The notes under the pieces were generated by a model. That model was not told the DNA's origin, did no database searches, and saw nothing but the letters and a program-made list of their open reading frames with translations. From assembly GCA_050050435.1 (NCBI GenBank), contig JASFUE010000001.1:1-39780 (forward strand): 39,780 nt of DNA, in the 5' to 3' direction. Both the position numbers and the translations under genes were made by a program. Below, in pieces: positions 33,045-36,318 of the stretch. Positions within the stretch are counted from its first letter, which is position 1. Each line of letters starts with the position of its first letter. The stretch is from Burkholderiales bacterium (GTDB lineage: Bacteria; Pseudomonadota; Gammaproteobacteria; Burkholderiales; Eutrophovitaceae).

Positions 33045-33511
33045 AAACGCGCCTTTTCATCGTGTTCGCTTTCGGACTTTGCCAACTGGGTCACAACTTT
33101 GCGTTGGCGCAGGACGAACCGCTTGGCCGTTTGTTCTATACGCCCTCACAACGCGCGGCGCTGAATGCAAATGTGCGCACCGTGACACGCGAGGCGCCCA
33201 AACCGAAGCCGGTTCCACCTTCCATGACCCTCAATGGCGTGATCACACGAAGTGACGGGGAACGAACCGTATGGATCGACGGCCAGGTATATCACCGCGG
33301 TGAAACCGGTGACCTTCAGGTCACGATCGAACCGGATGACCCCGGCGCGGTCGAAATCAAGGTCGAGGGCGTTCCCTACCGGCGCTCCGTACGGGTCGGC
33401 CAGCGGCTCGATCCTGCATCCGGAGAGACGCTGGAAGCATTCGAAACACGGCAACCAGACAGCGGCTACTCCGGCTCGGAAACTGCTTCAGATTCAGCTT
33501 CAGGACAGTAG
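33041..33511 (+). CDS. Small exported protein (MshK/PilP-like position)
   Basis: The ATG at 33041 is preceded by CCAGGAGGTGG. The signal peptide is MKTRLFIVFAFGLCQLGHNFALA-QD, giving a mature protein of about 130 aa. The ORF-track start at 32930 lies inside the previous gene. Confidence 0.45.
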   Translation: MKTRLFIVFAFGLCQLGHNFALAQDEPLGRLFYTPSQRAALNANVRTVTREAPKPKPVPPSMTLNGVITRSDGERTVWIDGQVYHRGETGDLQVTIEPDDPGAVEIKVEGVPYRRSVRVGQRLDPASGETLEAFETRQPDSGYSGSETASDSASGQ

Positions 33512-33539
33512 CGCAGCCAAGCTTGATAGAACGATCGCG

Positions 33540-35555
33540 ATGCAGGGTTTGGTCGAGCTGCGCAACGACGGGAGCAAGGTGGCATTCAGACACAGTCACG
33601 GGAACGCTCAGGATGGCCGGCGCCCTCGTCCCGAAGATCGGTTCGCGCTGACCTTCGTAGGGAAACCGCGATTCCTTTTGCCGTCGCGTCAACCTGATGG
33701 CGATCTATGCCAGAAGCTCTCAACCGTGGCGACCTGTAAACGTCGTTCGCCGCCAGCGCCAAGTCGATACAGGCACACACAGTGCGGCGCAATCGCGCTG
33801 GCGCTCATGATCATGCTGGGCCTGGTGATTGGCCTGCTGGTCATTTCGTTCGCTCGCAACCCAGCCGGCAACGGCGCCATCAACCCGCGCACCATTCATG
33901 CCCTGGCACAAGCGCGCGAAGCTCTGCTTGGATATTCGACAACATATAGGGATACCCATCCCGGTGAAGCGTTCGGCTATTTGCCTTGCCCTGACCTGGG
34001 AAGCGGGACCGAGGGACAGGCAGCAACTGCCTGTGGCGGCACCGATGTCACGGTCATCGGCCGGTTGCCATGGAAGACTCTGGATCTTCCGCCGTTGCGC
34101 GACGCAAGCGGCGAGTGCCTGTGGTACGCAATCTCGGGCAATTACAAGAACAATCCCAAGACCAGCGACTTGCTCAACCGCGACACCAATGGGCTGATCG
34201 AAGTCATGGCAGCCGATGGCACCGGTTTCATCGCAGGCGCCGTCCCGACACAACGCGCCGTTGCCGTGGTGTTTGCACCGGGCGCCATTCTGCCGGGCCA
34301 GGACCGCAGCCTGGCGGCAACCAATCCCCCCACCGTTTGCGGCGGCAATTACGGCCCGGCGAACTATCTGGACAGCGACGCCGCCAGCAGCATCGACAAT
34401 GCCACGGCGTCGAATGTAGCCAACGCACTCACGCGCTTTATCGCCGCGCAACACTCGGACCTGACCACGGCTGCCAATGACATATTCAACGACCAGTTGA
34501 TGACAATCGCAACTGACGATGTCTTCTCGCGCCATATCGATCGGCGCGCCGATTTCGAAAGCTACCTGACCGATCCGATTACCGGCCTGATGCGCAAGAG
34601 TGCCGATTGCCTCGCCGCCTACGGGCGCAGCAATGATTCTGGCGTAACAGCCAAGGTTTTGCCGTGGACCACGCAGATGAATGTCGGCACATTCGGCAAC
34701 TCGGCCAGTTATGACGACTCTGCGGGCAGGCTCTCGGGCCATCTTCCCTGGATCGTCGACACGTCTGCCACTACGGCACCAAATACCAATTCGAATTATC
34801 CGGGCATACCAATGTTTGATGAGTCCCGCTGTGCAGGTTGGACCGGGGTCAGTGCATTCTGGGAGAACTGGAAAGATCACCTGTATTACGCAGTCGCAAG
34901 GGCACATCGGCCAGACTCCGCGGTGGCAATCGATGATGATCCGTGCATCCTGGAAGAATGTATCAGCGTGGCCGACTCGGGCGGCATCAGGAATAACATG
35001 GCGGCGGTCATCCTCTTCTCCGGCTCGCGCATGCCAACGCGCAGCAGAAACAACGATGCCAACCCGGCATATACAAGCGCCGATAAAGCCGAACCGGCGA
35101 ACTTTCTGGACGGTATTAATCTGTTCACAATTCGCACCAATCCGGGCCCGGCTGTGACTTCGGATCGGTTGTTTTCAAAGTTGTCGGGTAACGACACCAT
35201 CATGTGTCTGCGCCCCCTGCCGGTCGGCACCGGTACCGAACTGTTCGTCGACCCGACCTGCGGCGCATCCGCGAGTTGTACCGTTGATGGCAGTTTGCTG
35301 GCAGCGTACCGGACAGGTGCAACCAACAATTGCAGGGCGGGCACCAGCGGTGTTTCCGCTGCTTGCACGTCCCTGATGCGCAATATCGACATCAACAATT
35401 GCCCTGGCGATGGGACCACTTTCATTGACGGCGACCCGACCCGCCCGTATTCGTGCGAGCGCGGCGCTCGCGACTTTGTCAGTTTTGATTGCCTGGAGGG
35501 TTTTTCCACCCCCAGGTGCCAGCTCGCCTATACTGCCCTGACCAAATGCCAGTAA
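33540..35555 (+). CDS. Large Cys-rich modular pilin-like protein without Glu5
   Basis: The reading frame is open from 33252. Plausible starts are the ATG at 33540 (671 aa) or the in-frame GTG at 33726 (609 aa, basic leader MATCKRRSPPAPSRYRHTQCG). The hydrophobic helix AIALALMIMLGLVIGLLVISF and the following REALLGY...YLPCP...ACGG...LPWKTL...LWYAIS align with the adjacent prepilin. The exported part contains 18 Cys. Confidence 0.6.
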   Translation: MQGLVELRNDGSKVAFRHSHGNAQDGRRPRPEDRFALTFVGKPRFLLPSRQPDGDLCQKLSTVATCKRRSPPAPSRYRHTQCGAIALALMIMLGLVIGLLVISFARNPAGNGAINPRTIHALAQAREALLGYSTTYRDTHPGEAFGYLPCPDLGSGTEGQAATACGGTDVTVIGRLPWKTLDLPPLRDASGECLWYAISGNYKNNPKTSDLLNRDTNGLIEVMAADGTGFIAGAVPTQRAVAVVFAPGAILPGQDRSLAATNPPTVCGGNYGPANYLDSDAASSIDNATASNVANALTRFIAAQHSDLTTAANDIFNDQLMTIATDDVFSRHIDRRADFESYLTDPITGLMRKSADCLAAYGRSNDSGVTAKVLPWTTQMNVGTFGNSASYDDSAGRLSGHLPWIVDTSATTAPNTNSNYPGIPMFDESRCAGWTGVSAFWENWKDHLYYAVARAHRPDSAVAIDDDPCILEECISVADSGGIRNNMAAVILFSGSRMPTRSRNNDANPAYTSADKAEPANFLDGINLFTIRTNPGPAVTSDRLFSKLSGNDTIMCLRPLPVGTGTELFVDPTCGASASCTVDGSLLAAYRTGATNNCRAGTSGVSAACTSLMRNIDINNCPGDGTTFIDGDPTRPYSCERGARDFVSFDCLEGFSTPRCQLAYTALTKCQ

Positions 35556-35583
35556 GACGCAAAACGCGGCCCCGGGGACTGTG

Positions 35584-36318
35584 ATGACGACATCCGTGAA
35601 GAAGCCTGTACGCGGTTTTTCGCTGATCGAATTGTCGGTCGCCTTCGTCGTGATCGCGCTGCTGCTGGGCAGCTTGCTTGTCCCTCTCTCCACCCAGGTG
35701 GATCAGCGCCGCTATGCGGAAACGGAAAAGCAGCTCGAGCAGATACGGGATGCGCTGGTCGGCTTCGCACTGGCGAATCGCTATCTTCCCTGCCCTGCGG
35801 TTTCAGCAGCAGACGGCAGCGAGGACCGCGATACCGGCACCAATGCCTGCACACTGGTTAGTGGCAACCCCAAGCGTGATGGATTTATTCCCTGGGTTAC
35901 GCTCGGTGTCAGACCCCAAGATGCGTGGGATAACCTGATTCGCTACAGCGTCGACCCGGACTTTGCGCGTTCCGATCCTGCTTTCCTGTTCACTCTGAGT
36001 AGCACCGGAGACATTCAGATTCAGGGCCGCGATAACGCAGGCAATCTAGTTGACCTCACCAACGTCGAGATACCTGCGGTCATCATTTCACACGGCAAAA
36101 ATGGCTATGGCGCTATTTCTGCAACGGGTGCAAACCGGGCGACTCCCGGCTCGTGGTCCGGAGACGAAAAAGACAACACATCGAACACGACCACTTTTTA
36201 CTATCGGACGCGCTCTGAAGTCACGTCGGCAACGGGCGGCGAATTTGATGATGTCGTTGCCTGGATCCCGCTCAACCAGTTGTTTGCCAGCATGGTCGCT
36301 GGCGGGCGTTTGCCCTGA
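35584..36318 (+). CDS. Type IV prepilin / pseudopilin with a canonical N-terminal methylation motif
   Basis: The sequence MTTSVKKPVRG / FSLIELSVAFVVIALLLGSLLV shows a leader ending in Gly, Phe at +1 and Glu at +5. At 244 aa it is long for a pilin, and it has two Cys (YLPCP...NAC). Confidence 0.88.
   Translation: MTTSVKKPVRGFSLIELSVAFVVIALLLGSLLVPLSTQVDQRRYAETEKQLEQIRDALVGFALANRYLPCPAVSAADGSEDRDTGTNACTLVSGNPKRDGFIPWVTLGVRPQDAWDNLIRYSVDPDFARSDPAFLFTLSSTGDIQIQGRDNAGNLVDLTNVEIPAVIISHGKNGYGAISATGANRATPGSWSGDEKDNTSNTTTFYYRTRSEVTSATGGEFDDVVAWIPLNQLFASMVAGGRLP

What the first reader, a model, noticed from the sequence alone, without database searches (positions are those of the whole stretch)
34116..35555. 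Internal duplication of the pilin globular module plus a Cys-dense C-terminal domain in the giant ORF
Seen in sequence, a block recurs about 740 nt downstream of its first copy:
- First copy, from about 34116: CLWYAISGNY...GLIEVMAADGTG...RAVAVVFAPGAILPGQDRS...YGPANYLDS.
- Second copy, from about 34857: FWENWKDHLYYAVARAH...CILEECISVADSGG...MAAVILFSGSRMPTRSRN...AEPANFLDG.
- The DNA at the PANYLDS/PANFLDG sites is 18/21 identical (ccggcgaactatctggacagc versus ccggcgaactttctggacggt).
- The same W-x-D/N-x-L-x-Y-S/A-V signature occurs once in the prepilin (DAWDNLIRYSV, 35920-35952).
- The last 120 or so residues carry 10 of the 18 cysteines (CGASASC, NNC, AAC, NNC, YSC, FDC, PRC, TKC), consistent with a disulfide-knotted extracellular domain.
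- I recognised no known adhesin, enzyme or PEP-CTERM motif.
Basis: seen in the sequence. Interest (0 to 1): 0.6.

Follow-up and report, generated by a model that had tools for sequence, protein, structure and literature searches.

The report
Two-headed pilus tip protein
This gene encodes a large, uncharacterised pilin-like protein of a type IV filament machine, made of two tandem copies of a pilin head plus a small cysteine-rich end domain. It most likely caps the filament and carries a swappable binding module.

Summary

- **The gene.** It is about 609 aa (33726-35555), not the 767-aa open frame.
- **The duplication.** It covers a whole pilin head of about 220 aa: residues 52-268 versus 282-508 (33879-34529 and 34569-35249). 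Family-profile hhalign gives probability 97% and E about 1e-10; reversed-profile controls give E about 0.4.
- **The first copy.** Together with the N-terminal helix, it is a full paralogue of the adjacent prepilin (hhalign E 1.9e-24).
- **The N-terminus.** It reads Q-x-G then a hydrophobic stretch and never has Glu5 (0 of 89 homologues). This is the hallmark of apical GspK/PilK-type minor pilins.
- **The cysteines.** All 18 mature cysteines are conserved.
- **The C-terminal domain.** The last 97 residues (35262-35552, 8 Cys) fold confidently as a small helical domain. It has no Pfam, NCBIfam or PDB match by sequence or Foldseek.
- **It is an autonomous module.** It is absent in Gallionella-type homologues and replaced by L-type lectin domains in others. 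It also occurs behind poly-Pro or Asp/Gly linkers on single-head relatives.

Best reading: a tip-located modular minor pilin of an MSHA-like filament. The family is large (at least 1,695 proteins, at least 574 species) and unannotated. It is a new variant of a known kind. Tip location and function are inferred.

The parts
33726..35555 (+). Whole gene: a 609-aa GspK-like modular minor pilin. The likely start is GTG 33726, and the stop codon is at 35553-35555.
   Evidence: Homologues have a 14-27 aa leader before the conserved Gly, and GTG 33726 lies 20 aa before it. The gene caller's ATG 33807 (P0003, 582 aa) cuts off the Q-x-G signal. The frame upstream of 33726 back to 33252 is merely open and overlaps the end of the 193-aa ORF.
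33726..33788 (+). Leader peptide ending in Q-C-G, with the putative prepilin-peptidase cleavage site after Gly21.
   Evidence: Q-[R/S/H/T..]-G followed by a hydrophobic stretch was found in 89 of the 119 homologues scanned by pattern. The residue at +5 is A, V, L or I (87), T or F (1 each), never Glu. An A24 prepilin peptidase gene lies at G000:C74:3252-3581.
33789..33851 (+). Hydrophobic alpha1-N helix without Glu5.
   Evidence: Helix 21-42 in the AF2 model. It aligns with alpha1 of the neighbouring prepilin family.
33879..34529 (+). Pilin head copy 1 (residues 52-268): an alpha1-C helix, then a beta-sheet with CLWYAIS, LIEV, AVAVVFAPG, PANYLD and FNDQLMTI.
   Evidence: hhalign against the prepilin family gives E 1.9e-24 over residues 24-272. 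Model pLDDT is mostly above 90.
34569..35249 (+). Pilin head copy 2 (residues 282-508): a helix, then WENWKDHLYYAV, CISVA, AAVILFSG, PANFLD and GNDTIMCL.
   Evidence: hhalign copy 1 against copy 2: probability 96.9-97.4%, E 1.8e-10 to 4e-11, 190-200 columns. Controls give E 0.36-0.61. It also gives a weak match in the same register to the prepilin (E 0.014).
35205..35261 (+). End of the conserved core, C652 to C670 (the L-F-V-D-P-T-C strand). Tail-less homologues stop here.
   Evidence: The alignment shows Gallionella-type proteins ending L-x-V-x-P-C-P. The core holds 10 invariant Cys.
35262..35552 (+). C-terminal Cys-rich helical domain (97 aa, 8 Cys), an autonomous module of unknown fold family.
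   Evidence: Cys conservation is 86-100%. AF2 pLDDT is 94-97 in the full model and 86.9 when folded alone. A profile search of 1.84 billion representatives finds 26 proteins, including a single-head plus linker plus CTD family. Pfam, PDB sequence search and Foldseek find no match.
35581..36318 (+). Adjacent canonical prepilin (G|FSLIE, with Glu5), a paralogue of copy 1.
   Evidence: PF07963 hit. Profile homology. It lies directly downstream in 76 of 80 related loci, and the other 4 are cut by contig ends.

Best explanation
The gene encodes the apical (GspK/PilK-type) minor pilin of an MSHA-like type IV filament machine.

**Proposed steps**
1. The precursor enters the inner membrane through its hydrophobic alpha1-N helix.
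2. The genome's A24 prepilin peptidase probably cleaves it after the Q-C-G motif.
3. Because it lacks Glu5, it can only occupy the first, topmost position of the filament. There it primes assembly with the neighbouring paralogous pilin and caps the fibre.

**Build of the body**
- It has two tandem copies of a pilin head of about 220 aa, from an ancient duplication, braced by five conserved disulfides' worth of cysteines.
- The second head has no membrane helix. It stacks on the first and extends the tip outward.
- On top sits a 97-aa helical domain with 8 Cys. This is an exchangeable functional module: relatives lack it or carry L-type lectin domains in its place. It is most likely the ligand-binding (adhesive) end of the filament.

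**Shown versus inferred**
- Shown: the domain architecture, the paralogy, the duplication, the Cys conservation, the modularity of the tail and the operon context.
- Inferred: cleavage, tip position, disulfide formation and binding function.
For: **Context**
- The operon holds an MshL-type secretin, an MshE-type ATPase with an MshEN domain, a GspF/PilC platform and an ExeA/MshM-like ATPase.
- The order ATPase, platform, three assembly ORFs, this gene, prepilin is kept in essentially all 80 related genome loci.

**Pilin nature**
- The prepilin family profile matches residues 24-272 at E 1.9e-24.
- tblastn cross-hits between the two genes reach E 1e-6 to 4e-8.

**Apical signature**
- The N-terminus is Q-x-G then hydrophobic, and none of 89 homologues has Glu at +5.
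- GspK/PilK-family pilins are larger than their partners, lack Glu5 and for that reason are placed only at the tip (PMC5207764; PMC13533445).
- A prepilin peptidase is present in the genome.

**Duplication**.

**Rigid multi-domain body**: AF2 gives pLDDT 90.2 and pTM 0.87.

**Modular tail**
- The tail is present in 78 of 119 homologues and absent in 35. One has a truncated tail. Five carry larger tails, three of them with L-type lectin Pfam hits.
- The same CTD sits behind poly-Pro or Asp/Gly linkers on single-head Q-R-G pilins.
- Modular pilins with grafted adhesion modules, including lectins, are an established design (PMC8179133, PMC9934059).
Against: - No experiment bears on this family.
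- No HMM for GspK, PilX_N, MshP/Q or PilY1 matches.
- Foldseek finds no PDB neighbour, not even a pilin or the GspK structure. The link to GspK therefore rests on the N-terminal signature and on analogy.
- The window's own motif is Q-C-G, not the commoner Q-R-G, and cleavage is untested.
- The CTD has no recognisable binding site or known fold, so 'adhesin' is argued only from position and from lectin-bearing relatives.
- The locus lacks recognisable GspI/J-type partners. How a tip complex would form is unclear.
Confidence: 0.6

Rival explanations
1. It caps a short periplasmic pseudopilus of a secretion machine (T2SS-like use of the MSHA-like apparatus). As proposed for GspK, the bulky two-head body and the CTD would stall or gate growth at the secretin or engage cargo. 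It would not be a surface adhesin.
For: - It has the GspK-like signature: large size and no Glu5 (PMC5207764).
- The platform protein and the ATPase score about as well against T2SS models as against pilus models.
- No retraction ATPase lies in the locus.
- The confident inter-domain model (pTM 0.87) suggests a rigid body, as argued for GspK.
Against: - The secretin is closest to MshL, and the ATPase carries the c-di-GMP-binding MshEN domain typical of MSHA pili.
- Relatives carry lectin domains at the same position, which fits external ligand binding better than cargo pushing.
- No obvious exoprotein genes lie in the locus.
Confidence: 0.2
2. It is not a filament subunit. It would be an uncleaved bitopic inner-membrane protein whose pilin-like periplasmic domains act as an assembly scaffold or sensor for the machine.
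For: - No Glu5 and no PF07963 hit.
- Predicted leaders are long and variable.
- The model shows a break between the TM helix and the next helix, with pLDDT below 50 at residues 43-49.
Against: - It is homologous to a canonical prepilin over the entire mature length, including alpha1.
- A conserved Gly precedes the hydrophobic helix exactly as in class III signals.
- Swappable distal modules, including lectins, make little sense in the periplasm.
Confidence: 0.12
3. The internal similarity is chance, or convergence of short beta-strand motifs, and not a true duplication.
For: - Pairwise identity is only about 20%.
- The single-sequence score is reached by 3 of 500 shuffles.
- DNA similarity is limited to one 18-nt stretch.
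Against: - Profile-profile alignment is collinear over 190-200 columns at E about 1e-10, while reversed profiles give E about 0.4.
- The same order of helix, four strands and motifs recurs in both copies and in the neighbouring pilin.
Confidence: 0.03

Closest known systems
GspK / PilK / PilX / MshP family of apical minor (pseudo)pilins
   Same: - A class-III-like leader ending in Gly, with a hydrophobic residue instead of Glu at +5.
- Much larger than the partner pilins.
- Encoded in the filament operon.
- Expected to be the first, tip-most subunit (PMC5207764, PMC13533445).
   Different: - No sequence or Foldseek match to GspK, PilX_N or MshP.
- The extra mass is a second pilin head plus a Cys-rich domain appended C-terminally, not an alpha-domain inserted in the beta-sheet.
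- No GspI/J-type partners are recognisable in the locus.
Clostridioides difficile PilJ (dual-pilin fold)
   Same: One polypeptide carries two pilin-like head domains. The N-terminal one is thought to be built into the filament and the second to project from it (PMC9556784).
   Different: - PilJ comes from a Gram-positive organism and is much smaller.
- No detectable sequence or structural match here.
- This protein lacks Glu5 and has a third, Cys-rich module.
Modular pilins: Streptococcus sanguinis PilB (vWA) and PilC (lectin); ETEC CofB / Vibrio cholerae TcpB; Caulobacter CpaL
   Same: - An N-terminal pilin module carries grafted C-terminal modules displayed at the tip.
- Relatives of this protein carry L-type lectin domains, as PilC carries a lectin module.
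- CpaL is likewise about 600 aa: a pilin-like domain plus an adhesin part acting as the GspK equivalent (PMC8179133, PMC9934059, PMC13533445).
   Different: - The grafted parts here are a duplicated pilin head and a domain with no database signature.
- CofB and TcpB have Glu5 and form homotrimers.
- I could not test whether the C-terminus returns to the first head as in CpaL or GspK, because no coordinates were available.
MshQ / PilY1 tip adhesins
   Same: A large distal protein of MSHA or T4a pili, encoded next to the minor pilins and presumed to bind surfaces.
   Different: MshQ and PilY1 are not pilins. They have no alpha1 helix and dock by beta-strand addition (PMC13533445). No HMM match here.

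Membership tests
Type IV pilin (class III signal peptide, IPR012902 / PF07963) | Short leader ending in Gly, followed by a hydrophobic alpha1-N helix of about 20 residues | tested here: met
   Q-C-G then AIALALMIMLGLVIGLLVISF in the window. The Gly and the hydrophobic run are conserved in 89 homologues, and the model shows a helix at 21-42.
Type IV pilin (class III signal peptide, IPR012902 / PF07963) | Glu at mature position 5 and a match to the N_methyl HMM | tested here: not met
   The +5 residue is A, V, L or I (87), T or F (1 each) in 89 of 89, never Glu. No PF07963 or TIGR02532 hit.
Type IV pilin (class III signal peptide, IPR012902 / PF07963) | Homology of the head domain to a bona fide pilin | tested here: met
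   hhalign against the neighbouring prepilin family: probability 99.6%, E 1.9e-24, 216 columns.
GspK family (Pfam T2SSK; NCBIfam GspK/XcpX) | Match to the family HMMs or to the GspK structure | tested here: not met
   No Pfam or NCBIfam hit for the window protein or for 22 homologues. No PDB sequence-profile hit to a pilin. Foldseek gives no hit at E below 1.
GspK family (Pfam T2SSK; NCBIfam GspK/XcpX) | Larger than the partner pilins and hydrophobic at +5 | tested here: met
   588 aa mature against 233 aa for the neighbour. No Glu5.
GspK family (Pfam T2SSK; NCBIfam GspK/XcpX) | Alpha-helical domain inserted between strands of the pilin beta-sheet | tested here: inconclusive
   DSSP of the model shows the extra mass C-terminal to head 1, not an inserted alpha-domain. 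I could not inspect the topology because no coordinates were available.
Modular pilins (sense of Raynaud et al. 2021, PMC8179133) | N-terminal pilin module plus an extra module that also exists independently of that pilin | tested here: met
   The CTD is found on a different, single-head scaffold behind flexible linkers. The tail is absent or replaced by lectin domains in relatives.
Modular pilins (sense of Raynaud et al. 2021, PMC8179133) | The extra module is a defined functional domain with a database signature | tested here: not met
   The CTD has no Pfam, NCBIfam or PDB match. Only the lectin-tailed relatives meet this feature.
PilJ-type dual-pilin fold | Two pilin-like head domains in one chain | tested here: met
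   Head 1 against head 2: E about 1e-10 over 190-200 columns.
PilJ-type dual-pilin fold | Detectable relationship to PilJ itself | tested here: not met
   No PDB hit by profile or by Foldseek.
MshQ / PilY1 tip adhesins | Match to the family models (PilY1 beta-propeller, MshQ) | tested here: not met
   No Pfam or NCBIfam hits.
PEP-CTERM proteins | C-terminal P-E-P motif, then a TM helix and a basic tail | tested here: not met
   The protein ends ...ALTKCQ with no C-terminal hydrophobic helix.

The most novel reading that the evidence does not exclude
The two pilin heads in one chain form a built-in tip-initiation complex. By duplicating its own head, the apical pilin would supply in cis the surfaces that GspI/J/K-type trimers supply in trans. 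An MSHA-like filament could then be primed by a single Glu5-less subunit plus one paralogous pilin. The CTD would be a previously unseen disulfide-stapled helical ligand-binding fold, swapped among lineages like a cartridge.
Probability: 0.2. Interest if true: 0.7.

Novelty: new variant of a known kind. Interest (0 to 1): 0.45.

Why it matters
How type IV filaments start and what sits on their tip is an active question. Recent work (PMC13533445) argues that every filament class uses a Glu5-less apical pilin completed by an extra element.

This family offers a widespread, unannotated and confidently foldable case:
- It has at least 1,695 proteins and occurs in at least 574 species genomes.
- It was found in about 10% of the sampled genomes of its class.
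- It is common in iron- and sulfur-oxidising Betaproteobacteria such as Gallionella, Sideroxydans, Ferrigenium and Azovibrio.

In this family the apical pilin has duplicated its own head and carries exchangeable distal modules: none, a Cys-rich helical domain, or an L-type lectin. That makes it a natural experiment on tip architecture. It may also help explain what these environmental bacteria attach to. The Cys-rich domain and the head domain would both merit new family definitions in the databases.

Tried and rejected
**Searches that found nothing**
- Pfam and NCBIfam scans of the full ORF, of each part and of 22 homologues. The only hits were lectin domains in three long-tailed relatives.
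- PDB sequence-profile searches with the family and with the CTD.
- The neighbouring prepilin against the PDB: only E about 0.4 to a narrow-pilus PilA5.
- Foldseek against the PDB: best E 1.9 for the full model (RuvA, GPCRs; noise) and 7 for the CTD model.

**Readings rejected**
- A kringle-repeat protein (P0128) and an Ig/BNR protein (P0138) appeared in the CTD profile search. The scores come from many tiny stretches of Cys-rich repeats, so I rejected them as spurious.
- A recent DNA-level duplication: only one 18-nt stretch is similar.
- The 767-aa reading of the ORF and the caller's 582-aa start.

**Searches that missed their aim**
- I searched 401 genomes of the class with a single-head plus CTD protein, hoping to see its gene context. 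Only N-terminal matches to other family members came back, so that context remains unknown.

I could not check disulfide pairing, superposition of the two heads, or the path of the C-terminal strand.
Full report
**1. What is at the coordinates**

The frame 33252-35555 (+) is open for 767 codons. Only its last 609 codons look like a gene.
- The preceding 193-aa ORF ends at 33511.
- Homologues carry a leader of only 14-27 residues before a conserved Gly. In the window, GTG 33726 lies 20 residues before that Gly.
- The gene caller's start on record (ATG 33807, 582 aa, P0003) cuts into the hydrophobic helix and removes the signal.

I number residues from 33726, so window coordinate = 33726 + 3(n-1).

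**2. Checking the observation**

- The two copies lie 741 and 738 nt apart.
- The two 21-nt sites are 18/21 identical.
- The prepilin motif is at 35920-35952.
- Ten of the 18 cysteines downstream of the caller's start lie in the last 120 residues.

On the single sequence the internal similarity is only suggestive. The local score is 59, against 37.6 +/- 5.9 for shuffles, and 3 of 500 shuffles reach it.

With profiles built from 119 homologues it becomes clear.

| Comparison | Probability | E-value | Columns |
|---|---|---|---|
| Whole halves, residues 52-268 vs 282-508 | 96.9-97.4% | 1.8e-10 to 4e-11 | 190-200 |
| Reversed profiles (control) | - | 0.36-0.43 | - |
| Heads against the Cys-rich tail (control) | - | 0.56-0.61 | - |

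The repeat is therefore real and longer than described. It includes a helix and then the strands carrying these motifs:

| Copy 1 | Copy 2 |
|---|---|
| CLWYAIS | HLYYAVA |
| LIEV | CISV |
| AVAVVFAPG | AAVILFSG |
| PANYLD | PANFLD |
| FNDQLMTI | GNDTIMCL |

At DNA level nothing but one 18-nt stretch is similar, so the duplication is old. All listed homologues share it.

**3. What the repeated unit is**

- The gene directly downstream (35581-36318) is a canonical prepilin: G|FSLIE, with a PF07963 hit.
- I collected its orthologues from 67 related genome loci and compared the two family profiles.
- The mature prepilin (positions 6-228) aligns with residues 24-272 of the large protein at probability 99.6%, E 1.9e-24.
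- tblastn cross-hits between the two genes in other genomes reach E 1e-6 to 4e-8.

Copy 1 together with the N-terminal helix is therefore a complete pilin, paralogous to its neighbour. Copy 2 is a second pilin head without a membrane helix.

**4. The N-terminus**

- Homologues read Q-[R/S/H/T...]-G followed by a hydrophobic run of about 21 residues. The window has Q-C-G.
- The residue at +5 is A, V, L or I in 87 of 89 sequences where the motif could be located, T or F in the other two, and never Glu.
- Published work places Glu5-less, oversized pilins (the GspK/PilK/PilX/MshP family) only at the very tip, as the first subunit of a nascent filament (PMC5207764, PMC13533445).
- An A24 prepilin peptidase gene is present elsewhere in the genome.

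**5. Structure**

- AlphaFold2 on a 97-sequence alignment gave mean pLDDT 90.2 and pTM 0.87.
- In order, the model has: helix 21-42; a low-confidence break; helix 54-77; a sheet (head 1); helix 288-301; a second sheet (head 2); a hairpin at 490-509; and a helical end domain.
- Foldseek against the PDB returned nothing below E = 1.9.
- The end domain folded alone has pLDDT 86.9 and five helices. It also found nothing, with best E = 7.
I could not test head-on-head superposition or disulfide pairing.

**6. Cysteines and the tail**

- The core has ten Cys at 96-100% conservation. The last of them is C670 of the long frame, in L-F-V-D-P-T-C. Tail-less homologues end exactly there.
- The tail proper (35262-35552) has eight Cys, each conserved in 86-100% of tail-bearing homologues.
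- The even numbers, 10 and 8, fit five plus four disulfides. This is an inference.

Tail types among the 119 listed homologues:

| Tail type | Number |
|---|---|
| This Cys-rich tail | 78 |
| None (mostly Gallionella and relatives) | 35 |
| Truncated | 1 |
| Larger tails (three with L-type lectin Pfam hits) | 5 |

- On a tree of the core, the tail-bearing sequences form one clade. Four changes of tail class suffice to explain the pattern.
- A profile of the tail searched against 1.84 billion representative proteins found only 26.
- Besides this family, these include proteins of 270-350 aa. They consist of one Q-R-G pilin head, then a poly-Pro or Asp/Gly linker, then the same domain.
- The tail is therefore an autonomous, transferable module.
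- A kringle-repeat hit and an Ig-repeat hit are compositional noise.

**7. Context and distribution**

Upstream genes, in order:
- a sigma-54 response regulator;
- an ExeA/MshM-like ATPase with a SPOR domain;
- an MshL-type secretin;
- a TPR protein;
- an MshE-type ATPase with the c-di-GMP-binding MshEN domain;
- a GspF/PilC platform protein;
- three assembly ORFs.

The order ATPase, platform, three ORFs, this gene, prepilin is kept in essentially all 80 related loci. The prepilin follows in 76 of 80, and the other four are cut by contig ends.

The family is large.
- At least 1,695 proteins matched at E <= 0.001.
- Relatives were found in at least 574 species genomes of Beta- and Gammaproteobacteria. 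These include Gallionella, Sideroxydans, Ferrigenium, Sulfuricellaceae, Azovibrio restrictus and Chromatiaceae.
- 40 of 401 sampled genomes of the class have a head-1-type protein, with open frames of 284-1,136 aa.
- All named entries are 'hypothetical' or loosely labelled 'PulG'.

**8. How it most likely works**

- Shown: a Glu5-less pilin paralogue with a duplicated head and an exchangeable distal module, fixed next to a canonical pilin in an MSHA-like operon.
- Inferred: it is cleaved after Gly21 and seeds the filament as its top subunit. Head 2 and the Cys-rich domain then project from the tip, where the domain binds a ligand.

I put this at about 0.6. The rivals are:

| Rival | Confidence |
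|---|---|
| GspK-like cap of a secretion pseudopilus | 0.2 |
| Uncleaved inner-membrane scaffold | 0.12 |
| Chance similarity | 0.03 |

**9. Comparison with known systems**

- It works like the GspK/PilK family but fails that family's HMM and structure tests.
- It resembles C. difficile PilJ in having two pilin heads (PMC9556784), without detectable relationship.
- It fits the concept of modular pilins (PMC8179133, PMC9934059) and of large GspK-equivalents such as CpaL (PMC13533445).

Verdict: a new variant of a known kind, in a large unannotated family with no solved structural neighbour.

**10. Limits**

- No multimer modelling or coordinate access was possible.
- All functional statements are inferences.

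Noticed in passing
G000:C2:36582-37265 (-), locus L094; compare L001:12435-13100: A third pilin gene (N-terminus G|FTLIEIAIVLVII, about 222 aa) is 80% identical to the pilin lying about 4.6 kb downstream of the pair in the closest relative (L001). In this genome it sits on another contig (C2), not in the window. Similar pilins lie 1-5 kb downstream in over half of the long related loci. The filament locus may extend beyond the window, and this may be the major pilin.
   Followed up: partly
P0133-P0137, P0139-P0142: A separate family of 270-350 aa proteins has one Q-R-G pilin head, then a poly-Pro or Asp/Gly-rich linker, then the same Cys-rich helical domain. I could not retrieve its gene context.
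   Followed up: partly
P0081, P0093, P0103 (homologues, about 785-803 aa): These homologues carry an L-type (legume-like) lectin domain of about 280-300 aa in place of the Cys-rich tail. P0087 and P0090 carry a different, unidentified tail of about 175 aa with 5 Cys.
   Followed up: partly
window 33807 (caller's ATG) versus 33726 (GTG): The gene call on record for this protein (582 aa) starts inside the hydrophobic helix and removes the Q-x-G signal. That would hide its pilin-like nature from signature-based annotation.
   Followed up: yes
G000:C74:3252-3581 (-), locus L081: The genome's A24 prepilin peptidase is encoded away from this locus. The genome holds 14 N_methyl-type pilin genes in several clusters (C14, C53, C47 and others), so several type IV filament systems coexist.
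   Followed up: no
window 33512-33725: About 215 nt lie between the end of the 193-aa ORF and the likely start. This stretch is open in the gene's frame and has no clear Shine-Dalgarno sequence before any candidate start. It is the only sizeable gap in an otherwise tightly coupled operon, and I found no explanation for it.
   Followed up: partly
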